The notes beneath the pieces were generated by a model. The model was given only the letters and a program-made list of their open reading frames with translations. It did no database searches and was not told the origin of the DNA. A DNA stretch of 64,000 nucleotides from Candidatus Omnitrophota bacterium (GTDB taxonomy: Bacteria > Omnitrophota > Omnitrophia > Omnitrophales > Aquincolibacteriaceae), in the NCBI GenBank assembly GCA_022711115.1, contig JAKLFP010000001.1, forward strand, positions 261,183 to 325,182, given 5' to 3'. Positions 41,749 through 59,901 of this stretch are shown piece after piece (positions within the stretch are counted from its first letter, which is position 1; the number at the start of each line of letters is the position of its first letter). Both the position numbers and the translations under genes were made by a program.

Positions 41749-41862
41749 ATGGTTCTCCGTTTCGTACGACTGTGTTGATTCAAAAAACGGGAAATCCCTG
41801 ATCGTTCCTGATCTTTTATTTCCCCGAATAAGATAGGGGAAACTTTTTTATTTATCAAGCCT

Positions 41863-43023: not shown

Positions 43024-43059
43024 TCAAATTCCTTTTTAGGCGAATTTTTGAAAAAATCG

Positions 43060-45957: not shown

Positions 45958-46323
45958 TCAAGACGGCTGGAGAGTATCGCCCACCTTCAGGTCGATTTTT
46001 TCAAGGCTCCCTGCGGGAAGTTCCACCACGGAGTAAGCATTCCAAACGACAGGCCCCAACCGATTGCGTTGAAAATGATGCGTGAGCTTCACAACCTGAC
46101 CTGCTTTGGTCAAATAGATCACATCAATCGCGTATCTCATCCCTAGCGAATGAATGGAATCGCATGGGACCAGCCAAAGGCCGTGTCCCGGCAACAGCTG
46201 ATCCGTAAAAAGCAACCCACGCATCCTGGAAAAAGGGGTTTTCGCAATCTTCAGGTTTTCCACAACAACTTCCCGGGTACGTGCCGTTATCAGCTTCATC
46301 GTATCCCCTTTCATCTTAAGCAT
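45958..46323 (-). CDS. DUF192 (COG1430) domain protein
   Basis: SRMRGLLF...GLWLVPCDSIHSLGMRYAIDVIYL. Its start overlaps the tadC stop. Confidence 0.6.
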   Translation of the reverse strand: MLKMKGDTMKLITARTREVVVENLKIAKTPFSRMRGLLFTDQLLPGHGLWLVPCDSIHSLGMRYAIDVIYLTKAGQVVKLTHHFQRNRLGPVVWNAYSVVELPAGSLEKIDLKVGDTLQPS

Positions 46324-47131
46324 TTTTGGCTGTATTTATTTTTTCTAAAAAAGGAATGATATTTAAAACAGAAGGCCCTATAAGCACGACAAAAATAGAC
46401 GGCATAATCAAAAAAGCGAGCGGGAATAATAATTTGATTGGTAATTTTAAGATCTTTTCACGCGTCCGAATACGAATCGTTTCCCTCAATAAAGCACTGT
46501 GATTTCTTAACGTATCGCTCAGCTTCATGCCCAGTTTTTCGGATTCAATGAGCGTAATGACAAAGGATTTTATATCCGGAACTTTGGTTCTATTGGCAAA
46601 ATTTCGAAAGGCATCTTCCGCAGGAAGCCCCACATTGATCTCGTAAAAGGTATAGCGCAATTCATTCGATAAAGGGGTTCCCTTCGTCTCTTCTGCTAAA
46701 CGGACCAGAGATGCATTGAGAGACATACCCGCCTCAAGGCAGACAACCAGAAGATCTAAAGTGGTCGGCAAGGCCTCTTCAATCAAGCGTCGATAGCGAC
46801 GGACCATATAAATTTTCAAAAAAAGTTTTAGCGATAGCCCTGCCAAAATAGCCATGAGAAGTTTTATGGCCACCGGTCCGGAAGCAGGAGCTGCTTGCTG
46901 CCACAAAATCGCAAAAAATATCGGGATACCTAAAAAAAGAAGATTTTCAATGTAGAATTTATGGGGTGAAATATGCGCGGCTTTTAAAACCTCCTCTTTA
47001 TATTGTTTCGCAGACGTCAAGATGCTTAAACGTTCCTGAAAGCGGTCTTTTTGGGCGGTGGATGTCAAAAATGACCAAACTCCCAATCCGACCGCAAGGC
47101 TAAACAACACGATCACAATCGCGAATATCAT
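46316..47131 (-). CDS. tadC: Flp pilus assembly protein TadC (T2SS-F domain)
   Basis: Polytopic GspF-like domain. Position after tadB. Confidence 0.8.
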   Translation of the reverse strand: MIFAIVIVLFSLAVGLGVWSFLTSTAQKDRFQERLSILTSAKQYKEEVLKAAHISPHKFYIENLLFLGIPIFFAILWQQAAPASGPVAIKLLMAILAGLSLKLFLKIYMVRRYRRLIEEALPTTLDLLVVCLEAGMSLNASLVRLAEETKGTPLSNELRYTFYEINVGLPAEDAFRNFANRTKVPDIKSFVITLIESEKLGMKLSDTLRNHSALLRETIRIRTREKILKLPIKLLFPLAFLIMPSIFVVLIGPSVLNIIPFLEKINTAKNA

Positions 47132-47146
47132 TTTCTCCTCTTACGC

Positions 47147-48112
47147 TTAAAAGGGAATTCTCAAATTGACCATTTTCTTTACGATCAAGGCCCCCATCAC
47201 CATCATCACCAGCGCAATCGTAACAAGATTGCGTCCGACTTCATTTTCAAACAAGGGCTTTAAATAACCCGGATTTAATAGGTTCAGGATCAAGGCAACA
47301 ACAAACGGTGCCGTAGAAATAATCCAACCGCTTAGCCGCGCCTGAGCTGTTAAAGCTTTCAGCTCCTTGCGCATGACCACACGCGCTGTGATGGTGGCTT
47401 CCAATTTGCTCATGAGTTCTGAAAGATTTCCGCCGGACTCCTGCTGGATGGCAACTCCGACCACAAAGGTTTTGGTGTCTTTGCTTCTTATTCGCTTGTA
47501 AAGCCCCGCAAGCGCATGCGCCATACTTTCTCCCATTTGCAGTTCGCCTACCACCGTTTGAAATTCTTTATTGATCGGATAGGGAGCATCATGGGAAACT
47601 CTTTCAAACGCGCTGGAGATACCAAGGCCAATCCCCACCGCCCCCCGTATGATCTGCAAAGCCATGGGAAAATGCTGGTCGAAAAGATCGACATATCTCG
47701 CATAACGATAGGTCAGAATACCGCTTGGCACAAAAAAAAGCGCCAGTGCCGCCGCGGGAACGGCAATGATATTGGGGATATGCGCTCTAACCAAAATAAG
47801 ATATAAGAACAAAGCTCCGATGAGCGAAATGAGCACAAAAACGCTCACCGAAATGCCCCATCCGCTAGCCTTAAGCATGAGATTAATCTTCGAGAAAAAA
47901 GCCTGTCGCAATAGAATTGCATTCAGTGCGCGTATGTCACTGTATTGGTGTTTCTTTTCAACCTCAAGATGCCCTTTCTTTTTTTTCTCTTCAACTTGTC
48001 CTTCAAAACGCTTTTGCAGAAAGGCCGCATCTCCCGCTGTTTTATCCAACAGGAAAAAAGTAATAAAAAAAACGGATCCGGCCAACAGCGCGGCTAAAAT
48101 AATAAATATCAT
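47147..48112 (-). CDS. tadB: Flp pilus assembly protein TadB (T2SS-F domain)
   Basis: GspF-like membrane domain downstream of cpaF. Confidence 0.8.
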   Translation of the reverse strand: MIFIILAALLAGSVFFITFFLLDKTAGDAAFLQKRFEGQVEEKKKKGHLEVEKKHQYSDIRALNAILLRQAFFSKINLMLKASGWGISVSVFVLISLIGALFLYLILVRAHIPNIIAVPAAALALFFVPSGILTYRYARYVDLFDQHFPMALQIIRGAVGIGLGISSAFERVSHDAPYPINKEFQTVVGELQMGESMAHALAGLYKRIRSKDTKTFVVGVAIQQESGGNLSELMSKLEATITARVVMRKELKALTAQARLSGWIISTAPFVVALILNLLNPGYLKPLFENEVGRNLVTIALVMMVMGALIVKKMVNLRIPF

Positions 48113-48124
48113 GAGGGTCTCGTT

Positions 48125-49441
48125 TTAAAGTGGTTTCAAAATTCGGCTTAAAAATTTTGGTCTTACTGGGGAGAAAACAAACTGACCGATCACCCTTCCT
48201 TTTTCATCAACCCCCTTTTCCTCGAATTGCATCACATCCTGAAGGCTGACGACGTCTCCTTCCATCCCCACGACCTCTGAGATCGATGAAATTTTCCTAG
48301 TTCCATCGGAATAACGTTTGATCTGGATCAAAAGATGCAATGCCGAAGCAATCTGGCGGATAATCGATAAATGAGTCAGATTGGCATTTCCAAGCAGCAC
48401 CATCGTTTCAATACGGCTCAATGCATCCCTTGGCGTATTGGCATGAACGGTGGTGAGCGAACCCTCATGCCCCGTATTCATCGCCTGCAACATATCCAAC
48501 GCCTCTTCGCCACGGCATTCGCCGATAATAATGCGGTCAGGACGCATACGTAGCGCATTGCGCAACAAATCCCGCTGGGAAACCCGCCCTTTGCCTTCCA
48601 CATTCGCGGGACGTGTTTCCAGACGGACCACATGCTGCTGCTGCAGTTGAAGCTCGGCAGCATCCTCAATGGTAATAATACGTTCTGTGTTCGAGATATG
48701 TGCCGAAAGGACATTTAAAAGGGTTGTTTTTCCCGTTCCTGTACCCCCGGAGATCAAAACATTTAATTTGCTTTCGACAGCGAGTTTGAGACACTCCGCC
48801 ACTTTATCATTCAGCGACCCGAGATGGAGAAGATCCTGAACCTTAAGAGGATCCTTTTTGAAACGACGGATGGAAAGCACGGGACCGTTCAGTGCCAGGG
48901 GTGGAATGATCGCATTGACACGTGATCCATCCGCAAGCCGTGCGTCAACCATGGGCGATGCCTCATCCACACGCCGTCCCACCGCCGCCACGATACGGTT
49001 AATGACATGCCTCAAATGCGTGTCATCCTTGAAGGTAATACCTGTCAGGATCAATTTCCCACGCTCTTCAACATAGACCTGTTTGTAACCATTGACCAGT
49101 ATTTCATCGATGGAAGATTTTGCCAGCAGAGGTTCAAGAGGCCCGAGGCCAAAGGTTTCATTTACGATTTCCTTGATAAGATCAGCTTGCTGGTAAGCAT
49201 TCAGGGCGACCTTTTCTTCTCCCACGATTTTTTTTACAAGCTCCGCAACCTGGTCACGCGCGTCATTGGCCGGAAGTTTATTGATCGCTTCAAGATCCAG
49301 ACGTTCAATGAGCTTCTGATGCAAGCGGAATTTCAGATTGTGGAAAAAAATATTTTGCCCTATTTCCCCGACGATTGGCTGAAAACCGGAAGCGCTTTCG
49401 CTGTGGGCGGATATTTGCTTTAGCCGGTCCGCGAGACTCAT
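48125..49441 (-). CDS. cpaF: Flp pilus assembly secretion ATPase CpaF/TadA
   Basis: [15 protein letters not shown] Walker A, Asp box, Walker B, His box (VirB11/GspE family). Confidence 0.95.
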
Positions 49442-50646
49442 GGATGGATCACCTTCTTAAGCGCTTGTTTGAATCCCAAAAACATCCGCATGTCTTTTTT
49501 TTCGGATTGGAAATCAGCTTCAATCTTTTTTGCGAAGTCTTTAAACTGAGCATTCAAAGGAGATCCGTGCGCGGCGTTAATAATCGCCTGTCCCATATTG
49601 ACGCTTTGACATGCGCCGGCATAGTCATTGCTGAAAAAGTGCGCGAAATTATACCTCAAAATTTCTTTTGCCTTGGACAGGTTGATGGCTTCGTATTTGG
49701 AGCTATAACGATTGATAATGATTTTTATCTTTTCAGGTGAGTATTTCAACTGCTCAAGAAATTCAAGGCACCGTGAAGCGCTTCTCAAGGAAATAAGTTC
49801 CAAGGTGCTTGTGATGAAGATATGGCACGAATTATCAATAATGGAAATCAACTGGTCGGTCAGACGGTAACCTCCGTCGATAAAAATATAATCAAAATAA
49901 ACCATAAAAGCATCGAGCATCTTTTCAATGATCGGGGATGTCAATTGTTCGATGTCTTCAATTCTTGCGGGCGCCGGTAAAATGGAAATCCCGTGTTCGG
50001 TCGGCGGCAAAACCCCGCGCAAATATTTATCATCAACACGGTCAATATTGTGAGAAATATCCATTAAAGAAAACTCGGGTTTGTAATTTAGAAAGAAGGG
50101 GATGTCACCCGCCTGAAGCGCCATGTCCCATAGCAGAACCCGCTTTTTGGTAAGTTTCGCTACGCTGATGGCAGTATTGACAGTGACAAAAGTGTTCCCC
50201 ACACCGCCTTTAAAATTAAGGAAGGTGTATACCTTCCCCAGTTTCCTCGAACTTTGCGGCGTCCCGCTCCGTCGAAACCGCTGTATCACTTTCAGGATTT
50301 CTTTTTCCTGAACCGGAAGTTCGATAAAATCCCGCATCCCGTACTTCACGAACTGAAGCGCATGAGGTTTAAGCTCGGGGGTCAGGATTCCCACAAGAGG
50401 AACGATATCACCCACCTTTTCCAGTTTGGAAATCAAATGCTGTAGCTCTTCATCGGAAAACGATCCGAAATCCACCAGGATCAACTGAGGGCCGTAGCGT
50501 AAAAACATTTCCTCTGTGGTTATTTTAAGCGGGCACAGGTCGAGTTTGCAACCGGATTCCGGATGTTTCCGGAAAAACTCTTCAAGGGTTTGCGCGTTTT
50601 TATAATCATTTGAAAAAATAATGGCGTTGATTTTCTGTACTTCCAT
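49438..50646 (-). CDS. cpaE: CpaE/TadZ-like pilus localisation ATPase
   Basis: N-terminal receiver-like domain plus a ParA/MinD-like domain with the deviant Walker A FLNFKGGVGNTFVT. Confidence 0.8.
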   Translation of the reverse strand: MEVQKINAIIFSNDYKNAQTLEEFFRKHPESGCKLDLCPLKITTEEMFLRYGPQLILVDFGSFSDEELQHLISKLEKVGDIVPLVGILTPELKPHALQFVKYGMRDFIELPVQEKEILKVIQRFRRSGTPQSSRKLGKVYTFLNFKGGVGNTFVTVNTAISVAKLTKKRVLLWDMALQAGDIPFFLNYKPEFSLMDISHNIDRVDDKYLRGVLPPTEHGISILPAPARIEDIEQLTSPIIEKMLDAFMVYFDYIFIDGGYRLTDQLISIIDNSCHIFITSTLELISLRSASRCLEFLEQLKYSPEKIKIIINRYSSKYEAINLSKAKEILRYNFAHFFSNDYAGACQSVNMGQAIINAAHGSPLNAQFKDFAKKIEADFQSEKKDMRMFLGFKQALKKVIHP

Positions 50647-50668: not shown

Positions 50669-52273
50669 TTAGCCTACAAGCGAGAATGGAACGAATAAAC
50701 TTATTTCATCGAAAATCTTCTGCAACGCGGCTTGAATTTTCGCAATATTGTTGGTGTCTTTAATATGATAATGCTCCTCAAGCCCCGAATATTGCGCGAT
50801 CAGGTCAAACAGCAGCTTCGTTGTCTTCTGCTGTTGTGTTGATCCGCCAAGATCCCCGAAAGTGATCGGGTAAACACGGATATTCTGTTCGATCGCCTTC
50901 GTTGCCTGCGCAAGGGTATAATTCCGGGCTAACGCCAATTCCGCCGCCGTTGCTTCCGATCCAAAACATTCGACTGCGCCACCGGGTGTTTTGGGTGCGC
51001 AGTTAGGCAATCCGTCCGTAAACACAATAATGACCGAAATGCTTCTCGAGGAAGTAGCGCTGCTGGTAATACCGCCGGCCGCGGTAAGGATCGCATCTCC
51101 GATATTGGTGTTTCCGTGGGGAATCGCAATAGGGCCGAGAAATTGTTCTATCGCCGGATCATAAGCTGCTGTGCCGTTATACTTATAGACAGGATTGGTG
51201 ACAACGGTCGCATCAGGAAGAGTAATAGGATCGGCCCGAATAAGGTTATGATAAAGCTCGCTATTGTTGAAAAGCGGCGTAAAAACGTTGTTTATATTGT
51301 CCTCCGTGACCGGGATCAGCGCAGGCCCCGACAATTTTTGGGTAACATGGCTTGCAAAATAATAAACCCCCGCCATATCCCCCAGATCACTCTCAGCGAT
51401 CAAGCCTTCCAAAAAATCAAGCGATGAATTCAGAACCACTTGTAAAGGCTGCGGGTATAAGGGAGGATTCGGTGCCGGAGCTAAAGGGCTAAAAAGCATC
51501 GGAAAGGACGTGCTAAAAGTCGGACGGCTGATAAAACTCTCCGTCTGCGGCCACACAGGATTGGGGGCGGTTATTTTGCCTGTACCATCCATCGTGGTCG
51601 TTCGAGGATAGCTGATATCATCCATGGAACCGGAATTGTCGATGACGAGCGCGAAATTGCGCGGGCTGAGCGAAGAAACGGAATTACGCGAAAAAGAAAG
51701 GCTTGCCACCCCGCAAATGTTCCCGAAAAAAGTCTGCACAGCGCCCCCTCCCATGCGAGTGACATGCACACGAAACGCCGTAATATCATGCAGCCCGATG
51801 CCTCCGCCCAGTAAATCTGCTGTCCGATCCGTAAACAACAGATTATGGGGATGGCCCGGCTTTTCATGGTAGGGATTCGTGTTGGTTAAATCAAACGTAC
51901 CGAATTGAAGCGAGATGGTCATGTCGGGATTATTACTAAGAACCTTGCTTTTGGCCATGACAGCCTCAGTGGTATCTTGCGTTCTCTTTCTGATTTTTTT
52001 GATGACGGTGAGATCACTTAGATTCTGCCCCGCTTTGGCCGCAGCGCGCATCTCGGTAAGAAAACTGGCCGCGGCAGTTAAGGCTCCCGAATCCGCTATG
52101 GATTTTAATTCCGTGGAAACGACCATGACGGCAGAGAGATCCACAGCAAGGGCCGCAAGCCCCAGTGCCGCCACCATCATCGCAATGCTATAAACCAAAA
52201 GCATTCCTTTAGCATTCTTTAAAACAAAAAATAATCTAGATATCGTAGAAATTGATCCTGTTTTGCGTTTCAT
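50669..52273 (-). CDS. TadG-like pilus-associated protein with vWA domain
   Basis: TadE/G-like N-terminal hydrophobic segment (LLVYSIAMMVAALGLAALAVDLS). vWA MIDAS motif VIDNSGSMDD. Confidence 0.65.
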   Translation of the reverse strand: MKRKTGSISTISRLFFVLKNAKGMLLVYSIAMMVAALGLAALAVDLSAVMVVSTELKSIADSGALTAAASFLTEMRAAAKAGQNLSDLTVIKKIRKRTQDTTEAVMAKSKVLSNNPDMTISLQFGTFDLTNTNPYHEKPGHPHNLLFTDRTADLLGGGIGLHDITAFRVHVTRMGGGAVQTFFGNICGVASLSFSRNSVSSLSPRNFALVIDNSGSMDDISYPRTTTMDGTGKITAPNPVWPQTESFISRPTFSTSFPMLFSPLAPAPNPPLYPQPLQVVLNSSLDFLEGLIAESDLGDMAGVYYFASHVTQKLSGPALIPVTEDNINNVFTPLFNNSELYHNLIRADPITLPDATVVTNPVYKYNGTAAYDPAIEQFLGPIAIPHGNTNIGDAILTAAGGITSSATSSRSISVIIVFTDGLPNCAPKTPGGAVECFGSEATAAELALARNYTLAQATKAIEQNIRVYPITFGDLGGSTQQQKTTKLLFDLIAQYSGLEEHYHIKDTNNIAKIQAALQKIFDEISLFVPFSLVG

Positions 52274-54158
52274 TGCCTGTGCCCTGCCCTTCCCCAACAA
52301 CCTCTTTTTGGATTCTTTCCTTGGCCTTCTTGGCCTTTTCTTTCTCCAGCTCTTCAGCTTTCCTGGCCTCTTTTTTCTTTCGTTCTTCGGTTTTCTTAAT
52401 CTCTTTCTTTGCCCGTTCTTCGGCTTTCTTAACCTCTTTCTTGGCGCGTTCTTCTGCTTTTTTGGCTTCTTTCGCCGCCTTTGCCGCGGCTTTTTTATCT
52501 TTTTCCGTTAAACGTCTGGCATCCTTATCCTCAAATTCCTTTGCCAGCGCTTTCTTGTAAGCGAGTGCGTCCGCTTTTTCAGCAGCCTTCCTGTCACGTA
52601 ATTCCTGCTGGGCTTTCAGATATTCCTGGCGCAATTCATCACGTTTGATTGTGCGGTCCGAAATACCTAATCCGGATTTGCGTTCATTTTCATAACGCGT
52701 GAGATATTCTTCCATAGCCAATGCCTTTGCGATCTCGAAGGGCGGCTCCGGAATTTCATTCATAGTAAACAACGGGTCCTCTCTCTTTAGGTCTCTGAGA
52801 TCAAAACTTTCCTTTTGGAGATCCACGATATGCGGCGTAATAAAGATCACCAGCTCAACGCTCGCGTGTTCGCTCGATTTGCTTGAGAAAAGCTTGCCGA
52901 GCAAAGGAATCTTCCGAAAACCGGGCACTCCGGAATCTGTATTGGTATTTCGATCCGCAATAATTCCGCCGATCACAAACGTTGTATCGTTATTGATTTC
53001 AACTACCGTATTGGCCTTCCGGCTGGTAATCGCGGGAATATTAAACCCGTTAGCGATAATACCATTCGCCTGGTCCAGTTCGCTGATCTCGGTTTGAAGA
53101 TCAAAACGGATCCTGTTGTTGTCTAAAATAGAGGGCGTATAAGTCAGCTTGGTACCGTATTCTTTATAAGTGACGTCCGTGGTATTGGAAGTCACCTGCG
53201 GGATAGGAAATTCTCCTCCGACAAGGAGATGGGCTTTGGAGCCATCCCGAACAAGAATATTCGGCTTGGCCAAAACTTTAACCCAACTTTCATTCTCAAG
53301 TAATCTGACGACCGCACCGCCCCACCAATTTTTGCTGTGATAGGAGCCCGTCCAAGTGGTTTTCGTGCCATCCTCCGGAAGAGCTAGAACAATATCTTGA
53401 TGATCGTCAGAAACCTTAGACATGACAGGCCCTAATCCACCGGGCATGAATGTCATCCCGAATTTTTCAGCAAGATACGCACCGTCAATGCTGAACTCAT
53501 TGTCCTTGGAGCGACTGATCTCAATGACCCGGATTTCCAAGAGGATCTGCTTTGCTTCATTGACTGTCACGATGCTAGCGCTGTCTTTGGAAAAGGCTTG
53601 CGACGTTTCCGCGATCTGTTTTTGCATCTCCACGGTATCGACATTGCCGCGGACCACATAACCTTTTTCGGTCGGAAAAACATCCACCTTGTTCTGCGGG
53701 GCGATCTTTGCCAAAGCCTCTTTCAAAACGGTCGGATCGCCAACGGAGGTCACATTGTACACATAGATGTCCCCGGCCTTGTCCCAAACCAGAAGGTTGG
53801 CCGCGCCTTTTGTTTTAGTGGAGATCAAGACCTCCTGCTTATTAACGACTGCGACATCTGCGACATCGGGTGCGGAAATGGCCACACGGCCCACTTCCCG
53901 GTTGAAATGAATCACATGGCTGTTCCCGCTGATGATCTGCAGGTCGCTCTTGCCGACAACTTTATTTTCACTCCACGCAGGTTCTTCGACAGCAGCCGGA
54001 AGGGACTGGGTTTCCTTGTTCTTTGAAAAAGCATCGGACGAAGGACCGGAAACCGGGACATTCTGAGGCGCGTCAGGAACGACTGCCACGCAAATCCCTG
54101 TAAAAGCGAAATTGGCGATAAGTAGAAAGATTCCAAACTTTTTAAGTAAAGTCTTCAT
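52236..54158 (-). CDS. rcpA: Flp pilus secretin RcpA/CpaC with a Lys/Glu/Ala-rich C-terminal extension
   Basis: Signal peptide, BON-like N-domains, secretin core (VVEINNDTTFVIGGII...PLLGKLFS). C-terminal KKAEERAKKE-type repeats. Confidence 0.9.
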   Translation of the reverse strand: MKTLLKKFGIFLLIANFAFTGICVAVVPDAPQNVPVSGPSSDAFSKNKETQSLPAAVEEPAWSENKVVGKSDLQIISGNSHVIHFNREVGRVAISAPDVADVAVVNKQEVLISTKTKGAANLLVWDKAGDIYVYNVTSVGDPTVLKEALAKIAPQNKVDVFPTEKGYVVRGNVDTVEMQKQIAETSQAFSKDSASIVTVNEAKQILLEIRVIEISRSKDNEFSIDGAYLAEKFGMTFMPGGLGPVMSKVSDDHQDIVLALPEDGTKTTWTGSYHSKNWWGGAVVRLLENESWVKVLAKPNILVRDGSKAHLLVGGEFPIPQVTSNTTDVTYKEYGTKLTYTPSILDNNRIRFDLQTEISELDQANGIIANGFNIPAITSRKANTVVEINNDTTFVIGGIIADRNTNTDSGVPGFRKIPLLGKLFSSKSSEHASVELVIFITPHIVDLQKESFDLRDLKREDPLFTMNEIPEPPFEIAKALAMEEYLTRYENERKSGLGISDRTIKRDELRQEYLKAQQELRDRKAAEKADALAYKKALAKEFEDKDARRLTEKDKKAAAKAAKEAKKAEERAKKEVKKAEERAKKEIKKTEERKKKEARKAEELEKEKAKKAKERIQKEVVGEGQGTGNETQNRINFYDI

Positions 54159-54928
54159 ACCTTCACCTTTTCCTTCTTAACTCCGCGATAAAGTTCGATC
54201 TCTGTTTGCTCCGGAAGTATGGGAATGATGGATGTTTGTTTCGTACCGACAATTTCATCAAGGCGCATGTAGGTGTCTTTCACGTCGCGCTCGGAAAACG
54301 GCCGTATACTGATGTCCAATTTGCCCTTTTTCATGGCATAGGCCATGATTTCCGCGCCTTCGGGCGTCACCGCCAGAGTCACAGTGACGGTTGAACCTCC
54401 TGGCATCCCTCCCGCCTGGGCCCCTGCTTGTTTCATCGGAGCCGCTTTCATCACCAGTATGTTTTTCATAATGGTCTTTGTCTCAAATTCCTTGGCGGAG
54501 GTATCCGTAAAAACAACATCCACACGTCTGCCAAATTTGAGGAGCCTCAGGGCGTCTTCTGAAATAGGCAAGCTTACCGTGGTCGCACGATAACCTTCGG
54601 GAATCATATTGGCAATATTGTCTGTTTCGTCCGCGAGATCAAAGCTCCTGATAACATTCCCCCGTTGAACGGCATTGCGAAGATTTTGTCCCACCACCGG
54701 CGCCAACTCCGTAAAGGCAGTGCTCAACTCTGTCCCTTTCGGCATCAACAGCAAACTGACATCGGTCTTTCCGATCGTATCCCCGATATCCAGATCCCGA
54801 ACGGCTGTCGCCACAAGAATGGCTTTAGGATCTTTTTTCAACTCGTTGAAGACATGGAAAATAACTCCCAGTGTCAGCAGGGCACATAGTACCGAAAGAA
54901 AAAAAATGGATCTTGAAGATAGTCTCAT
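54155..54928 (-). CDS. cpaB: Flp pilus assembly protein CpaB/RcpC
   Basis: N-terminal TM plus a SAF domain (AVRDLDIGDTIGKTDV). ATG chosen as start; the track uses a TTG two codons upstream. Confidence 0.85.
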   Translation of the reverse strand: MRLSSRSIFFLSVLCALLTLGVIFHVFNELKKDPKAILVATAVRDLDIGDTIGKTDVSLLLMPKGTELSTAFTELAPVVGQNLRNAVQRGNVIRSFDLADETDNIANMIPEGYRATTVSLPISEDALRLLKFGRRVDVVFTDTSAKEFETKTIMKNILVMKAAPMKQAGAQAGGMPGGSTVTVTLAVTPEGAEIMAYAMKKGKLDISIRPFSERDVKDTYMRLDEIVGTKQTSIIPILPEQTEIELYRGVKKEKVKV

Positions 54929-54977
54929 AGGCAACCTCTACGGTGCTCAAAGTGTTCAGGGGTTTGATGAATAAAAC

Positions 54978-56699
54978 TTATCCTTCGAATTTGCATGAAT
55001 CATCATCCGGATAAACAATACATAATTCTTCTTGACTGCAACTGCTGCGGTCTAACCGGCAAAGTTGGTTCGTCCCACAACGGGCATGATCATAGAGGCA
55101 GCAAGCGTCACTCTCTCCCCTTATCGTGCAGCGTTGTTCCAGAGTACATCCCGTGTTATATAATCGGCAGTTTTGTTCCTGAGTACAGTATGTCGCATTC
55201 AGCTGACACCGCTGATCGGGCGTACAACCGATACCGTAATACAGACATTCTTGCGTCTGTGTGCATCCAGTATGATAAATAGTACATTCCTGATCTTGAG
55301 TACATCCCGTGTGATAATACTGGCATTCCTGCGTCTGCGAGCATCCAGAGTGATAAATAGTACATTCCTGAAGCTGTGTACACCCTGTATGATTCAATCG
55401 GCAATTCTGCTCTTGGGTGCAATAGGTTGCATTCAGCTGACACCGCTGATCGGGCGTACAGCCAATATTGTGATACAGACATTCCTGCTCTTGAATACAT
55501 CCCGTGTGGTAATATTGGCATTCCTGCTCTTGAGTACATCCCGTGTGATAATACTGGCATTCCTGCGGTTGCGTGCATCCAGAGTGATAAATAGTACATT
55601 CCTGAAGCTGTGTACACCCTGTATGATTCAATCGGCAATTCTGCTCTTGGGTGCAATAGGTTGCATTCAGCTGACACCGCTGATCGGGCGTACAACCACT
55701 ATTGTAATACAGGCATTTCTGCTCCTGCGTACATCCCACATTATTCAATCGGCAGTTCTGTTCCTGAGAACATTCTTCTCCATGGATATCGCATAACTGG
55801 TCATCCGTACACCCTGTATGATAGTAGGAGCATTCCTGAAGTTGCGTGCATCCAGAGTGATAAATAGTACATTCCTGAAGCTGTGTACACCCTGTATGAT
55901 TCAATCGGCAATTCTGCTCTTGGGTGCAATACGTTGAATTAAGCTGACAACGCTGATCGGGAAGACAATTTACATTGAGAAGCAAGCATCGTTGATCCTG
56001 GGTGCATTCATTCCTTACCAAACAACATGCATCGCTTTCCCCACGGATGGTGCAAAGCTCTTCCTGGGTGCATAAGTCAGGATCGGTGGCGCATGTGCAA
56101 ATGCCCGTAAGATCGCAAAGTCTCTGAGGATCCGTCACCTCCTCCTCGCCTGGTCCTGTATCGACAGGGAGTTTTAAATTGATATTTCCGGATTCTGTGC
56201 TTTTCTCTACAAAAGCCGAAGAGCTGACCCGGGTCGTCAGGGTACTGAGTCCCCAGGAAGGCGGAAGAAAAGCGGTCGTAAAAATAGTTATTTGCCGGGA
56301 AATATTGACCTGCAGAGGATTATCCTTGATCGCCCCCGGCGTTCCGTTGACTCCGGGAACAAGAATTTCAATCCCGTTTCCAGTAGCCGGGGGAGCACTA
56401 AGTCCGCCGACCAAAGCAAGGCTGGCTGTGATACGCGCCGTACAATCATTGATCGCCGCTTGGATCGCTGCTTCCTTAGTGATCCCCAAAGGGGGAGTGT
56501 AGTTGGGATTAAGCCTAGGGTCTGTAGCAAGCATCCTCGCTTCATCGCGGGCAATATTGTTGATAGTGTTCCGGGTGGTTAACGAATGGCCTGCATCAAT
56601 AATCATAAGGCTTAAAGCAAGCAGCACAGGAATCGCCAGCACCGTTTCCACAAGCGCTTGTCCTAGTTGCCTCTTACCTCGAACCCCCCTCTGAAACAT
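54978..56699 (-). CDS. TadE-like pseudopilin fused to about 25 tandem 13-aa di-cysteine repeats
   Basis: N-terminus GQALVETVLAIPVLLALSLMIIDAGH (TadE/TadF-like). From about residue 194 to the C-terminus the protein is Cys-rich. The regular repeats are CTQEQNCRLNHTG, CTQLQECTIYHSG and CTPDQRCQLNATY. Confidence 0.7.
   Translation of the reverse strand: MFQRGVRGKRQLGQALVETVLAIPVLLALSLMIIDAGHSLTTRNTINNIARDEARMLATDPRLNPNYTPPLGITKEAAIQAAINDCTARITASLALVGGLSAPPATGNGIEILVPGVNGTPGAIKDNPLQVNISRQITIFTTAFLPPSWGLSTLTTRVSSSAFVEKSTESGNINLKLPVDTGPGEEEVTDPQRLCDLTGICTCATDPDLCTQEELCTIRGESDACCLVRNECTQDQRCLLLNVNCLPDQRCQLNSTYCTQEQNCRLNHTGCTQLQECTIYHSGCTQLQECSYYHTGCTDDQLCDIHGEECSQEQNCRLNNVGCTQEQKCLYYNSGCTPDQRCQLNATYCTQEQNCRLNHTGCTQLQECTIYHSGCTQPQECQYYHTGCTQEQECQYYHTGCIQEQECLYHNIGCTPDQRCQLNATYCTQEQNCRLNHTGCTQLQECTIYHSGCSQTQECQYYHTGCTQDQECTIYHTGCTQTQECLYYGIGCTPDQRCQLNATYCTQEQNCRLYNTGCTLEQRCTIRGESDACCLYDHARCGTNQLCRLDRSSCSQEELCIVYPDDDSCKFEG
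55090..55940. repeat. tandem 39-bp coding repeats with a higher-order unit of about 234 bp, inside the TadE-like gene
   Basis: Near-identical DNA blocks, e.g. ggtgcaataggttgcattcagctgacaccgctgatcgggcgtaca, recur at about 55420, 55650 and 55190. The reverse-strand ORFs in the track are repeat artefacts. Confidence 0.8.
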
Positions 56700-56725: not shown

Positions 56726-57304
56726 TTAGTCGAGCGAAGGCGCCGGCATGGGTTGGGGAAGAGGTGCAACAGAAGCCACAAACTGGGGCATGGTAATTGT
56801 CGAAGTGATCTGTCTCGCCGCCAAAGTCGGTATTAAGGAACCCCTCCCCAGAACATTACTAACCATTTGAGACACCGTTATAGTAACGAGTTTTGTGCTC
56901 TCTCCACCCTGCTTTTGCGCTGGTATAGTGCTCGTGCTGATCGTAATGGTGGGAGCGTTAGCTCCCGTCAAACCCATATTGGTCAAAATCTGGTTCATAC
57001 ATCCCAAGATGTAGGCATTGCCACCCGCTCCTTCGGGATTTTTGGTCATACTGGCAATGCGGGCCCCTTCCCGTGCCACCTGCGTCATCTCATGCAGTCT
57101 AAAGATTACCTGCGATAAATCAAAAATCCCCGCAAACATGAGGATATACATCGTGCTGCACACGAGGAGTTCCACAAGAACTTGACCGCGTGTATGATTT
57201 TTTTTCCTTCTTATAAGCACCTCTTTGACTGCCCCATTATTTTTTTCCATCTCCCCCACTAAGCCGTCTGAAATTTTACAGCAACGGCGTCCTTCCCCTC
57301 TCAT
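56726..57304 (-). CDS. TadE/TadF-like pseudopilin
   Basis: HTRGQVLVELLVCSTMYILMFAGIFDLSQV TadE-like N-terminal segment. The start is uncertain (alternative ATG at 57250). Confidence 0.65.
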   Translation of the reverse strand: MRGEGRRCCKISDGLVGEMEKNNGAVKEVLIRRKKNHTRGQVLVELLVCSTMYILMFAGIFDLSQVIFRLHEMTQVAREGARIASMTKNPEGAGGNAYILGCMNQILTNMGLTGANAPTITISTSTIPAQKQGGESTKLVTITVSQMVSNVLGRGSLIPTLAARQITSTITMPQFVASVAPLPQPMPAPSLD

Positions 57305-57427: not shown

Positions 57428-57577
57428 TTAAAAAGTCGCGGCAAGCCAGGTCGAAAGCCAGTTAAACGCAGCAGTAATTTGACCCGAAAACGCTGTTACT
57501 GCAACGATCACGACCACCGCAACCAACCCGATGATCAATAAATATTCAACTAACCCTTGCCCCTTTTGATTCTTCAT
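57428..57577 (-). CDS. flp: Flp family type IVb pilin (49 aa, not in the ORF track)
   Basis: MKNQKGQGLVEYLLIIGLVAVVVIVAVTAFSGQITAAFNWLSTWLAATF. Canonical G/xxxxEY prepilin processing motif plus a hydrophobic stem. GGGGGA RBS. Confidence 0.8.
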   Translation of the reverse strand: MKNQKGQGLVEYLLIIGLVAVVVIVAVTAFSGQITAAFNWLSTWLAATF

Positions 57578-58128: not shown

Positions 58129-59901
58129 TTAATCGTTCTCGGTGCAGACGCGGTTTTTACCGGCTCTCTTGGCTTTATAGAGAGCCTCGTCCACGCGGTG
58201 CACCATCGGGTCCGGCACATTTTCTCCGGAATGAAGTGTGGCAACGCCCAGGCTGATCGTCACCGGAATATTTTTTTCTTCCCATTCGAATTTCATTTTC
58301 TCAATTTCTGAACGAAGGCGTTCGGCTGTACACTGCGCCGCTTCTGTCAGGCCTGCCTTGCGAAGCATGATAATGAATTCCTCGCCTCCGTAGCGGGCCG
58401 CAAAATCGATTTCCCGAAAGGGACGCCGCTTGCGGATATGGCTGAGAAGGACCGAAGCTGTTTTTTTCAAAACCATGTCCCCGGCAGGATGACCATAAGT
58501 GTCGTTGATCTTTTTGAAATTATCGATATCAAAAAGGATAATCGAAAGGGGCTCCTTGCGAACACTTGCCTCACGAACAATCTGGTTCATGATCACACGA
58601 AAATGGCGGATCACGTAGAGTCCGGTGAGCCCGTCGCGGGTGGCCAGATGAAACAGATGTGTTTTTTCCCGGGCGGCCGTGATTTGGACATAGATCGCCG
58701 AAAAAACAAAAAGGCAAAAAATAAGAAGCAACGGGTAGACCCCATAAAACCAGTAATGCGCTTTATAAAAGATCAGAAAACAGAAGAGGAACCAACCGAT
58801 CCCGAGCAGAAGCCCGGAAAGAAGAGACAGGGCGCCTCTTAACAGGATGAATAAAATGGACGCCAGCAAGCCAATACCGATCAGGCAAAGGATATTCAGC
58901 CAAAAGGGTGCCGGCCGGATCCAGTGCCCGGTCATGGCGGCGTTCATGATGTCTGCATAAACGCCAAGCGCCGGATAGGAAACATCAAACGGCGTCGTTT
59001 TAAATTCCGCCTGATTTTTGGCAACAAGCCCGACCATGCATATTTTCCCCGCGATCTTTTTGGGATCAATGACAGGTTTTAGCCCATCCCGGATCGCGTA
59101 AAAACTGTGGATCAGATCCGAAGAGCTGTAGCGCGCGATCCTTTCGCCCCATCCCCCCGTCCACGGAATGATGACTTTCCCATGATGATCGCCCCAGGCA
59201 ACCCAGTCTTTGGGTAGTGGGATCCTTTTTTTGAGAAAATCATATGCGGCAGGAAGAACAAAAAACGGATAAGTCTCCGTCCCATAACTCAAAAAAGGAT
59301 TGAACCGCCTCAAAATCCCGTCGGGATCTGCGGGCAGTTCGCGATGCCCGATGGCTTGTGCGTGATCTTTTATTTTCGGAAGCGCATGAACCCATGTCAT
59401 TTTTCCCTCGCCTTGATCCAGAACCACGGGCATTCCATGGATCCAGAATTTTCTTTCCTTCTGCGGTTTCAGGTCTACGGGCAAATAAACAGGCGTTGTG
59501 ATCCGTGCAAAAACCTGCGAAAGATCCCTATCCTCTTTGGGGTCGGTGGGTTCGGAAAAATTAAAATCAAGAACGATCGCGGCCGCTTTCCATTCATCCA
59601 ATAAACGCAGCATGGCGGCATGATAACTGCGCGGCCAAGGCCACGGTCCTATCTCATCCAGCACCGTTTCGGAGATCTCAATAAGAACGATATCCCGGCT
59701 GAACTGTGTTGAATGGGCGAATTTCATGAAGGTATCCAGAACGATATGCTCCAGACGATCCAATTGATGAAATGCCAGCAGAAAAACAAAAGCGGCGATA
59801 ATGGCGAGGTAGGTTCCGAAACGAAGCCAGCCCCGATAGCGGCGGGAACGGCTGCGGCCAAATAATTTTTCGGTCGTTTCAGTCGTCTCGTGAGAATCCA
59901 T
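58129..59901 (-). CDS. CHASE2-sensor diguanylate cyclase (CHASE2-TM-GGDEF)
   Basis: Periplasmic CHASE2 (VLIEISETVLDEIGPWPWPRSYHAAMLRLL), 3 TM, GGDEF (RYGGEEFIIML). Confidence 0.85.
   Translation of the reverse strand: MDSHETTETTEKLFGRSRSRRYRGWLRFGTYLAIIAAFVFLLAFHQLDRLEHIVLDTFMKFAHSTQFSRDIVLIEISETVLDEIGPWPWPRSYHAAMLRLLDEWKAAAIVLDFNFSEPTDPKEDRDLSQVFARITTPVYLPVDLKPQKERKFWIHGMPVVLDQGEGKMTWVHALPKIKDHAQAIGHRELPADPDGILRRFNPFLSYGTETYPFFVLPAAYDFLKKRIPLPKDWVAWGDHHGKVIIPWTGGWGERIARYSSSDLIHSFYAIRDGLKPVIDPKKIAGKICMVGLVAKNQAEFKTTPFDVSYPALGVYADIMNAAMTGHWIRPAPFWLNILCLIGIGLLASILFILLRGALSLLSGLLLGIGWFLFCFLIFYKAHYWFYGVYPLLLIFCLFVFSAIYVQITAAREKTHLFHLATRDGLTGLYVIRHFRVIMNQIVREASVRKEPLSIILFDIDNFKKINDTYGHPAGDMVLKKTASVLLSHIRKRRPFREIDFAARYGGEEFIIMLRKAGLTEAAQCTAERLRSEIEKMKFEWEEKNIPVTISLGVATLHSGENVPDPMVHRVDEALYKAKRAGKNRVCTEND

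What the first reader, a model, noticed from the sequence alone, without database searches (positions are those of the whole stretch)
54978..56699. Tad pseudopilin carrying about 25 tandem 13-residue di-cysteine repeats
The second minor-pilin gene of the Tad locus starts as an ordinary TadE-like protein. After about residue 194 it becomes a roughly 380-residue array of C-x5-C-x6 units (CTQEQNCRLNHTG, CTQLQECTIYHSG, CTPDQRCQLNATY and variants). These are organised in 6-unit (about 234 bp) higher-order repeats that are almost identical at the DNA level. TadE/TadF pseudopilins are normally about 150-200 aa with no appended domain. An array of about 50 regularly spaced cysteines on a pilus-associated subunit suggests a disulfide-stabilised, metal-binding or adhesive tip module. 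The near-identical DNA repeats also make the gene a likely hotspot for recombinational length variation.
Basis: seen in the sequence. Interest (0 to 1): 0.85.

Follow-up and report, generated by a model that had tools for sequence, protein, structure and literature searches.

The report
Cysteine-repeat tail on Tad minor pilin
A small pilus-tip-type protein of an uncultured Omnitrophota bacterium carries a 380-residue tail made of 13-residue units with two cysteines each. The tail belongs to no described protein family and probably forms a stiff, disulfide-braced rod at the tip of an adhesion pilus.

Summary
ORF 54978-56699 (-) encodes a 573-aa protein. Residues 1-194 are a TadE-type pseudopilin. 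Residues 195-573 hold 60 cysteines in strict C-x5-C-x6 spacing: 22 in-register 13-aa units plus degenerate caps. The units are grouped into 234-bp higher-order repeats. The gene sits in a complete chromosomal Tad operon of a Candidatus Omnitrophota MAG.

It is a real, constrained gene. A sister strain differs mostly at synonymous sites. Independent assemblies give the identical protein. Six orthologues in the same operon slot also carry Cys-rich tails. All seven tails have an even cysteine count, which favours disulfides over metal binding.

The tail matches nothing in Pfam, NCBIfam or PDB sequences. Two AlphaFold runs were low-confidence and disagreed with each other. Period-2 conservation (Q-x-C-x-hydrophobic) favours a β-rich stack or solenoid. 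That would be analogous to beetle antifreeze β-helices, but the tail is not a member of that family.

The repeat tracts are mosaic: 0/117 differences next to 25/117. Paralogues are more alike than orthologues, so array turnover is recent. Copy-number variation itself was not shown.

Best reading: a disulfide-braced rod on a pilus-tip minor pilin. This is a new variant of the known "customised Tad tip" theme.

The parts
54978..56699 (-). Whole gene: 573-aa TadE-like pseudopilin with a Cys-repeat tail. The stop codon is 54978-54980.
   Evidence: ORF. SD-like GAGAGG lies upstream of the ATG. The identical protein is found on 5 long contigs from several assemblies.
56661..56699 (-). Predicted class-III (prepilin) leader, aa 1-13, ending in G13. 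Predicted cleavage is G|QALVE, with Glu at +5.
   Evidence: Sequence. G13, Q14, A15 and E18 are invariant across orthologues. Cleavage itself is inferred.
56535..56663 (-). TadE motif / hydrophobic alpha1N segment (aa 13-55).
   Evidence: Pfam PF07811, E=1.1e-7, 32.3 bits against a cut-off of 22.9.
56118..56699 (-). N-terminal pilin-like domain (aa 1-194). It is 37-51% identical to the six orthologues and contains one Cys (C86) that the orthologues lack.
   Evidence: Alignments A1 and A2. tblastn against orthologous loci. Cys counts.
54981..56117 (-). Cys-rich tail (aa 195-573): 60 Cys, acidic (pI about 4.6).
   Evidence: No match in Pfam, NCBIfam or PDB sequences.
55110..55967 (-). Perfect-register array of 22 units of 13 aa with C-x5-C-x6 spacing (aa 245-530).
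55695..55967 (-). Higher-order copy 1 (aa 245-335): 7 units.
   Evidence: Exact repeats at a 273-bp offset. Alignment A3.
55461..55694 (-). Higher-order copy 2 (aa 336-413): 6 units, A-F.
55227..55460 (-). Higher-order copy 3 (aa 414-491): 6 units. Units A-C are identical at DNA level to copy 2; units D-F are 79% identical.
55110..55226 (-). Partial copy 4 (aa 492-530). Its A-B units differ from copy 3 at 15/78 nt, in 12 synonymous and 2 non-synonymous codons.
55575..55694 (-). First arm of the longest exact DNA repeat (120 bp).
55341..55460 (-). Second arm of the 120-bp exact repeat.
56022..56072 (-). N-terminal cap unit CTQEELCTIRGESDACC (aa 210-226). This 'ancestral' unit type is shared with all orthologues.
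55098..55148 (-). C-terminal cap unit CTLEQRCTIRGESDACC (aa 518-534). The conserved C-terminus ...C-x-VYPD-x3-CKxEG follows it.
57428..57577 (-). Flp major pilin (49 aa; motif G|LVEY).
   Evidence: Pfam Flp_Fap annotation on the same gene.
56726..57304 (-). First, short TadE-like pseudopilin (192 aa, or 174 aa from an alternative start).
54155..54934 (-). RcpC/CpaB.
52236..54158 (-). RcpA/CpaC secretin.
50669..52300 (-). TadG-like large minor pilin with a VWA domain. It is the probable third member of the tip complex.
   Evidence: Tad PF13400 and VWA PF00092.
45958..50646 (-). TadZ, TadA (CpaF), TadB, TadC and a DUF192 gene: the rest of the operon.
   Evidence: The same order is found in orthologous loci.

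Best explanation
The gene encodes a TadE/TadF-class minor pilin of a complete chromosomal Tad (Flp) pilus operon in a Candidatus Omnitrophota bacterium. A 380-residue C-terminal module has been grafted onto its pilin-like N-terminal domain.

Shown here:
- The architecture of the protein and its operon context.
- A small orthologous family in which this one subunit always carries a Cys-rich tail.
- Purifying selection on the tail.
- Recent amplification or gene conversion of a 6-unit, 234-bp block in this lineage.

Inferred:
- The leader is cut after G13 by a prepilin peptidase.
- The hydrophobic alpha1N helix joins the short TadE and the VWA-bearing TadG in the priming complex that ends up at the pilus tip. 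This follows the model proposed for TadE/F/G and KilL/M/N.
- The 60 tail cysteines are oxidised in the periplasm to about 30 disulfides.
- The 13-aa units stack into a thin, rigid, protease-resistant, β-rich rod. If it is a solenoid with a 4.8 Å rise per unit, it would be roughly 12-13 nm long.
- The rod is narrow enough to leave through the secretin ahead of the fibre. It presents ladders of Tyr/His/Asn and Thr/Gln side chains for contact with a surface or host cell.
- In-frame recombination between near-identical blocks can change rod length and surface.
For: TadE motif, leader and operon position.

Organism: Candidatus Omnitrophota MAG GCA_035390585.1. The region is housekeeping chromosome and includes a lipid A acyltransferase and a secretin, so the cell is a diderm with a periplasm.

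Family: P0001-P0004, P0023 and P0027 all lie in the same slot, Flp-TadE-X-CpaB-CpaC-TadG-TadZ-TadA-TadB-TadC-DUF192. TadA is 68-75% identical across these loci. Other Tad proteins of the locus that were counted (Flp, short TadE, CpaB, CpaC, TadG) have 0-4 Cys.

Cysteine parity: tail Cys counts are 60, 52, 54, 54, 56, 38 and 26, all even. Assuming equal odds of odd and even, this would happen by chance in 1 of 128 cases.

Selection:
- Window versus sister strain: 17 synonymous and 3 non-synonymous codon differences in the tail, 28 and 10 in the 5' part.
- Diverged paralogous units: 12 synonymous versus 2 non-synonymous.

Structure: conservation alternates with period 2 across unit positions 3-9. 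Q5, C7 and hydrophobic 9 are conserved; positions 4, 6 and 8 are variable. Q-x-C-x-V/M recurs in P0023. The single-sequence AF2 model places one strand per unit, and its weak structural neighbours are mostly β-solenoids or other parallel repeat folds.

Turnover: 0/117 next to 25/117 nt differences, and paralogous 120-bp and 91-bp tracts with no difference against 5.3-5.7% orthologous divergence. P0023 and P0001 have no DNA-level repeats.

Literature: Tad minor pilins are modelled as tip complexes with variable modules and many predicted disulfides (PMC12075869). Tad systems in Omnitrophota are linked to host-dependent lifestyles (PMC10066038).
Against: - No confident structure was obtained. 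AF2 with a 5-sequence alignment gave mean pLDDT 53 and one short helix per unit. AF2 on the tail alone gave pLDDT 43 and β-strands. Foldseek found nothing significant.
- Disulfide formation is inferred only. No Dsb or VKOR gene lies in the 64-kb window. Many Omnitrophota live without oxygen.
- Tip location is by analogy. In the published models the distal module sits on TadG/KilN, not on the TadE/F-like subunit.
- No prepilin peptidase gene was found in the operon.
- Copy-number variation was not observed, because short-read contigs of the sister strain break at the array.
- The exact number of higher-order copies in this assembly cannot be verified without reads.
Confidence: 0.5

Rival explanations
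1. The tail is a metal-binding or redox module. The thiolates, together with His and Tyr, bind metal ions or relay electrons. The pilus subunit would then serve metal capture, detoxification or extracellular electron transfer rather than acting as a disulfide-braced rod.
For: The tail is 16% Cys and has 14 His and 24 Tyr. Half of the units carry a recurring H-x2-C-x5-C pattern. Cation-efflux and ArsP-type transporters lie elsewhere in the window. Conductive pilins have been predicted in some Omnitrophota (PMC10066038). The habitat may be anoxic, which disfavours disulfides.
Against: Spacing is almost exclusively 6/7, with no CxxC, CxC or CxxCH motifs and only two CC pairs. His11 is present in only 11 of 22 units and is absent from the P0023 units. 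An even Cys count in all 7 tails is expected for full disulfide pairing but not for metal sites. There is no match to metallothionein or cytochrome families.
Confidence: 0.1
2. The tail is real but does not sit at the tip. It is a bulky periplasmic or outer-membrane-proximal element, such as a stopper, anchor or length/retraction controller that stays at the secretin. This would resemble a low-abundance pilin that blocks or triggers retraction.
For: In type IVb pili a large minor pilin (TcpB) controls both initiation and retraction (PMC5207764). Tad systems lack a retraction ATPase, so another control element would be plausible. The published tip models put the distal module on TadG, which here already has a VWA domain.
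Against: Minor pilins that prime assembly end at the tip in all current models. The family-wide conservation of a long, thin repeat architecture, and the surface-position variability at unit positions 4, 6 and 8, fit an exposed element better.
Confidence: 0.12
3. The regular array, or at least its copy number, is an artefact of short-read assembly (repeat collapse or expansion), or the ORF is a chance frame through a non-coding DNA repeat.
For: The contig comes from a metagenome assembly at about 9x coverage. Exact repeats of 120, 91 and 84 bp are present. The Logan short-read contigs of a sister strain break exactly at the array in 4 samples.
Against: The identical 573-aa protein is carried on contigs of different lengths (361,822 and 521,238 bp) from different assembly sources. 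The repeat units are multiples of 39 bp and stay in frame for 1.1 kb. Synonymous changes dominate between strains and between old paralogues. Orthologues with diverged DNA keep the Cys pattern. The sister-strain fragments encode the same flanks and the same unit types. The existence of the array is therefore secure; only the exact copy number is open.
Confidence: 0.05
4. The tail is an ice-binding or mineral-binding surface of the beetle antifreeze type: a flat Thr-rich face on a disulfide-braced β-helix.
For: It has the same Cys(i)-Cys(i+6) spacing, a 12/13-residue period and a Thr next to Cys, as in TCTxSxNCxxAx (PMC8038014). An ice-binding β-helix (FfIBP) is among the weak Foldseek neighbours.
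Against: Sequence and profile searches of the PDB found nothing at E<=10, and no Pfam insect-AFP hit appeared. The TxT face is interrupted (T-G-C-T-Q). Conserved positions follow period 2, not the in/out period 3 of TmAFP. The positions equivalent to the inward Ser/Ala carry variable or bulky residues.
Confidence: 0.03

Closest known systems
TadE/TadF pseudopilins of Tad (Flp) pili (Pfam PF07811)
   Same: N-terminal TadE motif above the Pfam threshold. A short leader ending in Gly, with Glu at +5 and a hydrophobic helix. The gene lies between flp and rcpC/cpaB in a complete tad operon.
   Different: It is 573 aa, whereas the other TadE-type proteins retrieved here are 129-192 aa. A 380-aa, 60-Cys repeat module follows the pilin-like domain and has no family assignment.
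Tip complexes of Tad/Kil minor pilins (KilL/KilM/KilN; TadE/TadF/TadG), Herrou et al. 2025, PMC12075869
   Same: Three minor-pilin-like genes lie in the locus, one of them a large TadG-like protein with a C-terminal module (VWA). The shared concept is a pilus tip customised by variable appended domains that are rich in predicted disulfides.
   Different: Here the long appended module is on the TadE/F-like subunit, and it is a regular tandem repeat rather than a globular domain. Kil tips are reported as restricted to Myxococcota. Heterotrimer formation was not tested here.
Large minor pilins of type IVb pili (CofB of ETEC CFA/III, TcpB of Vibrio cholerae)
   Same: A pilin domain followed by extra C-terminal domains. 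CofB is described as located at the pilus tip, and TcpB initiates pilus assembly and retraction (PMC6048534 and PMC5207764).
   Different: No sequence similarity to any PDB chain was found. The pilus class differs (Tad/IVc). The tail here is a Cys-repeat array, not a β-repeat/lectin-like domain (the latter is from my own knowledge of the CofB structures).
Beetle hyperactive antifreeze proteins (TmAFP/DcAFP): 12- or 13-residue repeats forming a disulfide-braced right-handed β-helix
   Same: Tandem 12/13-residue units, two Cys per unit spaced i and i+6, and Thr adjacent to Cys. One intra-coil disulfide per unit would give a thin rod (PMC8038014).
   Different: No detectable sequence or profile similarity. 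The conservation periodicity differs, and bulky residues sit where TmAFP has inward Ser/Ala. The array here is 22-27 units against 6-11 in the AFPs. The fold is unconfirmed. This is an analogy at most.
Orthologous Cys-rich second pseudopilins P0001-P0004, P0023 and P0027 (uncharacterised, from metagenomes)
   Same: Same operon slot. The N-terminal domain is 37-51% identical. They share cap motifs (LC-x5-CTC..., CTxEELCTIR..., C-x-VYPD-x3-CKVEG) and have even Cys counts. P0023 also has 12/13-aa di-Cys units with Q-x-C-x-hydrophobic.
   Different: P0001-P0004 have irregular Cys-rich tails with many CC doublets. P0023 and P0027 add DxDxDG (TSP3-like) linkers. None has DNA-level tandem repeats. 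Only the window lineage has the amplified, regular 13-mer array.

Membership tests
TadE/TadF-type Tad pseudopilin (PF07811) | N-terminal TadE motif scoring above the Pfam gathering threshold | tested here: met
   PF07811 at aa 13-55, 32.3 bits against a cut-off of 22.9, E=1.1e-7.
TadE/TadF-type Tad pseudopilin (PF07811) | Prepilin-type leader ending in Gly, Glu at +5 and a hydrophobic alpha1N segment | tested here: met
   MFQRGVRGKRQLG|QALVETVLAIPVLL. G13, Q14, A15 and E18 are invariant in orthologues.
TadE/TadF-type Tad pseudopilin (PF07811) | Encoded inside a tad locus together with flp, rcpC/cpaB, secretin, tadZ, tadA, tadB and tadC | tested here: met
   The order is conserved in 4 other loci.
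TadE/TadF-type Tad pseudopilin (PF07811) | Cleavage by the TadV/CpaA prepilin peptidase and a requirement for pilus biogenesis | not testable with these tools
   No peptidase gene was recognised in the operon. An experiment is needed.
TadE/TadF-type Tad pseudopilin (PF07811) | Small single-domain protein (about 130-200 aa) | tested here: not met
   573 aa, with a 380-aa appended module. The neighbouring TadE is 174-192 aa, and generic TadE hits are 129-150 aa.
Tad/Kil minor-pilin tip complexes (PMC12075869) | A set of TadE-, TadF- and TadG-like minor pilins in or near the locus, at least one with a variable C-terminal module | tested here: met
   TadE (56726-57304), this gene, and TadG with VWA (50669-52300).
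Tad/Kil minor-pilin tip complexes (PMC12075869) | Confident predicted heterotrimer held by a bundle of alpha1N helices | not testable with these tools
   No multimer prediction was available. The monomer models were low confidence.
Tad/Kil minor-pilin tip complexes (PMC12075869) | Numerous intramolecular disulfides | tested here: inconclusive
   Even Cys counts in all 7 tails are consistent with this. No structural or chemical evidence exists.
Beetle AFP-type disulfide-braced β-helix (TCTxSxNCxxAx) | Tandem 12/13-residue units with Cys at i and i+6 | tested here: met
   Strict 6/7 alternation of Cys gaps over 22 units. AFP features are taken from PMC8038014.
Beetle AFP-type disulfide-braced β-helix (TCTxSxNCxxAx) | Sequence or profile similarity to the AFP repeat | tested here: not met
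   phmmer and an HMM profile against all PDB sequences gave 0 hits at E<=10. Pfam at E<=10 gave no AFP family.
Beetle AFP-type disulfide-braced β-helix (TCTxSxNCxxAx) | Period-3 in/out pattern with small inward residues (C, S, C, A) | tested here: not met
   Conserved positions are 1, 5, 7 and 9 (period 2). The equivalents of the inward Ser/Ala are the variable position 4 and Tyr/Asn at position 10.
Beetle AFP-type disulfide-braced β-helix (TCTxSxNCxxAx) | β-helical fold | tested here: inconclusive
   The AF2 single-sequence model has one strand per unit and weak, mostly β-solenoid neighbours, but pLDDT is 43. The other AF2 run gave helices at pLDDT 53.
Metallothionein-like or other thiolate metal-binding proteins | Clustered CxC, CxxC or CC motifs | tested here: not met
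   Gaps are 6 or 7 apart from a few exceptions at the caps. There are only two CC pairs and one CxC.
Type IVb large minor pilins (CofB/TcpB) | Sequence homology to CofB or TcpB | tested here: not met
   Searches of PDB sequences (which, to my knowledge, include CofB and TcpB) with both halves of the protein gave no relevant hit at E<=10.

The most novel reading that the evidence does not exclude
The 13-residue di-cysteine units form a previously undescribed disulfide-braced solenoid or stack fold. This fold acts as a length-adjustable 'spear tip' on the Tad pilus of ultra-small, host-dependent Omnitrophota. The rod is the first element to touch, and perhaps penetrate, the envelope of a host or prey cell. 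In-frame recombination between its near-identical 234-bp blocks tunes its reach and surface between strains.
Probability: 0.2. Interest if true: 0.8.

Novelty: new variant of a known kind. Interest (0 to 1): 0.6.

Why it matters
Tad pili are the attachment and contact organelles of many pathogens and bacterial predators. They have been singled out as a hallmark of the suspected parasitic or predatory lifestyle of Omnitrophota, a phylum with no pure cultures.

What the tip of such a pilus looks like, and what it touches, is largely unknown. Recent work proposes that minor pilins carry interchangeable modules at the tip. This gene offers a concrete and unusual candidate module:
- It has 60 cysteines in a crystalline 13-residue register.
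- It belongs to no described family.
- It is conserved at protein level, yet its DNA is being actively reshuffled.

If the module is a disulfide-braced rod, it would be a new minimal repeat fold. It would give a handle, through an antibody or tag target, for finding the hosts of these bacteria. It would also be an example of repeat-number evolution acting on a pilus tip.

The finding is also a practical warning. Short-read assemblies break or may mis-count exactly at this gene.

Tried and rejected
1. Family and structure databases. The tail matched nothing in Pfam, in NCBIfam (E<=1), or in PDB sequences by phmmer and by a higher-order-repeat profile (both at E<=10).

2. Structure prediction.
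- AlphaFold2 on the full length with a 5-sequence alignment gave pLDDT 53 and helical units.
- AlphaFold2 on the tail alone gave pLDDT 43 and β units.
- The two are mutually inconsistent, so I treat the fold as unresolved.
- Foldseek searches with both models gave no hit below E about 1.

3. Word-indexed search with a profile of the N-terminal domain. It returned only two generic short TadE proteins and missed the known orthologues. The candidate list was swamped by the hydrophobic helix, so this search was uninformative.

4. JGI metagenome scan with the same profile. None of the 35 loci encodes a Cys-rich tail.

5. GTDB species-representative scan. Only the MAG carrying P0001 was found. The family is rare, or the window's genome is not among the representatives.

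6. HMMER search of 1.84 billion representatives with the tail. There were 53 hits.
- Most are unrelated 26-aa GCTDxxAxNY...DDGSC repeats, 24-aa four-Cys repeats (P0006), or low-complexity eukaryote-like proteins (P0008, P0017). I rejected these as convergent composition.
- Only P0023 and P0027 are true relatives.

7. Hits to P0023 are nearly all thrombospondin-type-3 (DxDxDG) linker matches, not matches to the tail.

8. I considered building a pseudo-alignment of shifted repeat units to feed AlphaFold. I rejected this because MAFFT would re-register the rows onto their true positions.

9. An N-glycosylation reading of the recurrent N-x-T was rejected. The acidic residue at -2 that the bacterial PglB sequon requires (from my own knowledge) is absent.
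Full report
**1. What is in the sequence**

The minus-strand ORF 54978..56699 is intact and encodes 573 aa. A GAGAGG ribosome-binding-like sequence lies upstream of its ATG. Pfam places a TadE motif (PF07811) at aa 13-55, above the curated threshold, and nothing else. NCBIfam finds nothing.

The protein has 61 cysteines. One is at aa 86 and 60 lie between aa 195 and 569. From C232 to C524 the gaps between successive cysteines alternate 6, 7, 6, 7 without a single exception.

This defines 22 in-register 13-residue units (aa 245-530). Their consensus is C-T-Q-x-Q-E-C-x-[L/Y/I]-[Y/N]-[H/N]-T-G, and C1, Q5 and C7 are invariant. Less regular cap units lie on both sides. They include two copies of CT-x-E-x-x-CTIRGESDACC, at aa 210-226 and aa 518-534.

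At DNA level, Tandem Repeats Finder reports a 234-bp period (2.5 copies at 88%, 2.9 copies at 82%, score 892). This is the strongest tandem repeat in the window.
- There are 60 cysteines, not about 50.
- There are 22 perfect units plus about 5 degenerate ones.
- The first higher-order copy has 7 units, not 6 (273-bp offset).
- The copies are mosaic rather than uniformly near-identical. Units A-C of copies 2 and 3 differ at 0 of 117 nt, while units D-F differ at 25 of 117 nt. The longest exact repeats are 120, 91 and 84 bp.

**2. Context and organism**

The gene lies in a complete Tad/Flp operon, all on the minus strand:

| Gene | Coordinates | Note |
|---|---|---|
| Flp pilin | 57428-57577 | 49 aa |
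| short TadE | 56726-57304 | |
| this gene | 54978-56699 | |
| RcpC/CpaB | 54155-54934 | |
| secretin | 52236-54158 | |
| TadG-like minor pilin | 50669-52300 | carries a VWA domain |
| TadZ, TadA/CpaF, TadB, TadC, DUF192 | 45958-50646 | |

A CHASE2-GGDEF diguanylate cyclase lies directly upstream.

The rest of the window is ordinary chromosome. It encodes ClpB, PNPase, IF-2, NusA, FtsK, DnaX, RecR, a lipid A acyltransferase and a B12-dependent ribonucleotide reductase.

Exact-sequence look-ups identify the source as a Candidatus Omnitrophota MAG: GCA_035390585.1, contig DAOOUA010000002.1, which is the same as ENA ERZ761563 NODE_20.

**3. Is it real?**

Four lines of evidence say yes.
- The identical 573-aa product is recorded on five long contigs from several sources. 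Contig lengths include 361,822 and 521,238 bp, so they come from different assemblies.
- A sister strain with about 5.5% nucleotide divergence, seen in four Logan assemblies (ERR7850082-85), carries the same gene. Its codon differences are 28 synonymous and 10 non-synonymous in the 5' 771 nt. In the last 351 nt, which lie wholly inside the Cys-rich tail, they are 17 synonymous and 3 non-synonymous.
- Older paralogous units inside the gene show the same signature. Examples are 15/78 nt differences in 12 synonymous and 2 non-synonymous codons, and cap units with 18/51 nt differences in 12 synonymous and 3 non-synonymous codons.
- Orthologues with unrelated DNA keep the cysteine pattern (see section 4).

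The array is therefore a translated sequence under selection. It is not a chance frame through a DNA repeat.

What cannot be verified here is the exact number of higher-order copies. The short-read contigs of the sister strain stop at nt 771, exactly where the first exact repeat begins. They resume inside the last D unit.

**4. Relatives**

A word-indexed search of 5.8 billion proteins found only four homologues, P0001-P0004 (525-543 aa, 32-34% identity overall). A full HMMER scan of 1.84 billion cluster representatives with the tail alone added two more, P0023 (456 aa) and P0027 (379 aa).

All six have these features:
- The same conserved pilin-like N-terminal domain (37-51% identity; invariant G13, Q14, A15, E18).
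- A Cys-rich tail, with no cysteine in the first 185 residues.

Every locus that could be read has the same gene order: Flp, short TadE, Cys-rich TadE, CpaB, secretin, TadG, TadZ, TadA, TadB, TadC, DUF192. TadA is 68-75% identical to the window's TadA.

The Cys-rich tail is therefore a stable trait of the second pseudopilin in one small Tad operon clade. It is not common. One GTDB species representative out of 185,579 carries it.

The tails differ in regularity:
- P0001-P0004 are irregular, with many CC doublets.
- P0023 has 12/13-residue di-Cys units much like the window's (C-T-S-S-D-Q-R-C-L-V-R-N-E), but no DNA-level repeat.
- P0001 likewise has no DNA-level repeat.

The repeat architecture is thus old at protein level. 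The window lineage has recently re-amplified it.

The other HMMER hits are unrelated Cys-repeat proteins with 24- or 26-residue periods, or low-complexity sequences.

**5. Disulfides or metal?**

The tail cysteine counts in the seven family members are 60, 52, 54, 54, 56, 38 and 26, all even. Full pairing into disulfides predicts this; metal sites do not. Assuming equal odds of odd and even, the chance of seven even counts is 1/128.

The spacing is also wrong for thiolate clusters. There is no CxxC, there is one CxC and there are two CC. The His at unit position 11 is neither universal in the array nor conserved in P0023.

The protein is exported by a pilin-type leader into the periplasm of a diderm cell, as the secretin and the lipid A acyltransferase indicate. 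Oxidative folding is possible there. No Dsb-type gene lies in the window, however, and the rest of the genome was not available to me.

I therefore favour about 30 disulfides. This is an inference.

**6. Fold**

No family or solved structure matches the tail by sequence. Two AlphaFold2 runs gave low confidence and contradicted each other:
- With the five-sequence family alignment: mean pLDDT 53, with one short helix per unit starting after Thr2.
- With the tail alone: mean pLDDT 43, with one β-strand per unit at positions 7-12. Its Foldseek neighbours are non-significant and are mostly β-solenoids or other parallel repeat folds: TPS domains, left-handed β-helices, a tailspike, leucine-rich repeats and an ice-binding β-helix.

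Independent of these models, conservation within the unit alternates with period 2 from position 3 to position 9. The entropies are 1.19, 2.02, 0, 1.91, 0, 2.38 and 1.55, and position 9 is always L, I or Y. The same Q-x-C-x-hydrophobic core recurs in P0023.

That is the signature of a β-strand with one buried face (Gln, Cys, hydrophobic), not of a helix. My best guess is a stack or solenoid of 13-residue β units braced by one disulfide per unit. I hold this guess with moderate-to-low confidence. At 4.8 Å per unit such a rod would be about 12-13 nm long and only about 2 nm wide.

The closest known analogue is the beetle antifreeze β-helix. It has 12-residue TCTxSxNCxxAx coils, occasional 13-mers, and a Cys2-Cys8 disulfide in every coil (PMC8038014).

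The Cys i/i+6 spacing, the period and the adjacent Thr are the same. Membership fails on three counts:
- There is no sequence or profile similarity.
- The in/out periodicity is different.
- Bulky or variable residues sit where TmAFP has inward Ser/Ala.

**7. How it probably works**

TadE, TadF and TadG are thought to prime assembly. In AlphaFold models they form a spearhead-shaped complex at the pilus tip. Its exposed end is a variable C-terminal module, and it contains many predicted intramolecular disulfides. In Myxococcus, interchangeable tips of this kind decide which prey are recognised and killed (PMC12075869). In type IVb pili, large minor pilins with extra domains (CofB, TcpB) have analogous tip and assembly-initiation roles.

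The Omnitrophota locus has the same three ingredients: a short TadE, this protein and a TadG with a VWA domain. Tad systems in Omnitrophota have been linked to predatory or parasitic, host-dependent lifestyles (PMC10066038).

My proposed sequence of events is as follows.
- The leader is removed after G13.
- The alpha1N helix joins the priming complex.
- The oxidised tail leaves through the secretin ahead of the fibre, as a thin rigid rod beside the VWA domain.
- The rod acts as a spacer, probe or adhesive surface.

All of these steps are inferred. The architecture, the family, the selection and the operon context are shown.

**8. Repeat dynamics**

Units A-C of copies 2 and 3, and units B-C of copy 1, are identical over 120 and 91 bp. 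Orthologous sequence in the sister strain differs at 5.3-5.7% of sites. At that divergence, a 120-bp tract with no difference has a probability of about 0.001.

The paralogous tracts were therefore duplicated or homogenised after the two strains separated. The sharp switch from 0% to 21% divergence inside one repeat block is typical of gene conversion or unequal crossing-over. One copy also has 7 units instead of 6.

A difference in copy number between strains has not been seen.

**9. Novelty and verdict**

I found no description of this protein family or repeat in the searchable literature or in the domain libraries.

The general principle, that Tad tips are customised by modules on minor pilins, is known. 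The subunit that carries the module here, the tandem di-cysteine 13-mer architecture, the host phylum and the ongoing amplification are new. I rate it a new variant of a known kind, with interest 0.6.

It is a well-defined and clearly unusual object in a biologically topical setting. Its fold and function still rest on inference.

Noticed in passing
window 52236-52800 (minus strand); tandem repeat at 52351-52460: The RcpA/CpaC secretin (640 aa) ends in a roughly 190-aa Lys/Glu/Ala-rich tail (…KKAEERAKKEVKKAEERAKKEIKKTEERKKKE…). Part of it is encoded by a 33-bp tandem repeat (3.3 copies, 79-89% matches). Orthologous secretins are shorter (544-585 aa), so the charged tail appears lineage-specific.
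   Followed up: partly
window 58129-59901 (minus strand): A CHASE2-GGDEF diguanylate cyclase lies directly upstream of the flp gene. It is kept in that position in the sister strain (L009-L011). This hints at c-di-GMP control of the Tad pilus.
   Followed up: no
window 45958-46323 (minus strand); L001, L004, L005, L008: A DUF192 gene closes the Tad operon in the window and in the four loci that extend to the operon end (L001, L004, L005, L008). It is an uncharacterised but consistently linked component.
   Followed up: no
window 39279-44331 (minus strand): A 383-aa protein with a type IV pilin N-methylation motif (PF07963) sits next to a TPR protein and two GDSL-family lipase/acylhydrolase proteins, a few kb downstream of the Tad operon. 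This may be a second pilin-like secreted or surface system.
   Followed up: no
P0023 aa 170-205 and P0027 aa 180-195 (L004 about 5500-5610): Two orthologues insert DxDxDG (thrombospondin type 3-like, calcium-binding) motifs between the pilin domain and the Cys repeats. The window protein has a plain acidic linker (…PVDTGPGEEEVTDPQR…) instead.
   Followed up: partly
P0008 (366 aa, from the representative library): A eukaryote-like protein carries about 13 near-perfect copies of CIQPRDCIQSDSG, with the same C-x5-C-x6 13-residue register. It has no pilin domain. This is probably convergent or a translated minisatellite.
   Followed up: no
L009-L012 ends and L008 start (sister strain, Logan assemblies ERR7850082-85): In all four samples the contig stops at nt 771 of the gene. 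The only downstream contig fetched (L008, a contig recorded in 4 samples) resumes 351 nt before the stop. Short-read de Bruijn assemblies systematically lose the repeat array, so members of this family are probably under-counted in metagenome protein catalogues.
   Followed up: yes
window 56726-57304 (minus strand): The start of the first TadE is ambiguous. It is 192 aa from the first ATG but is annotated as 174 aa in GenBank (HOW58653.1). The predicted G|QVLVE cleavage site is the same in both.
   Followed up: no
window 55156-55796, both strands: Long alternative-frame ORFs (179 aa on the minus strand, 207 aa on the plus strand) run through the repeat array. They are by-products of the periodic DNA and could be mis-called as genes.
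   Followed up: partly
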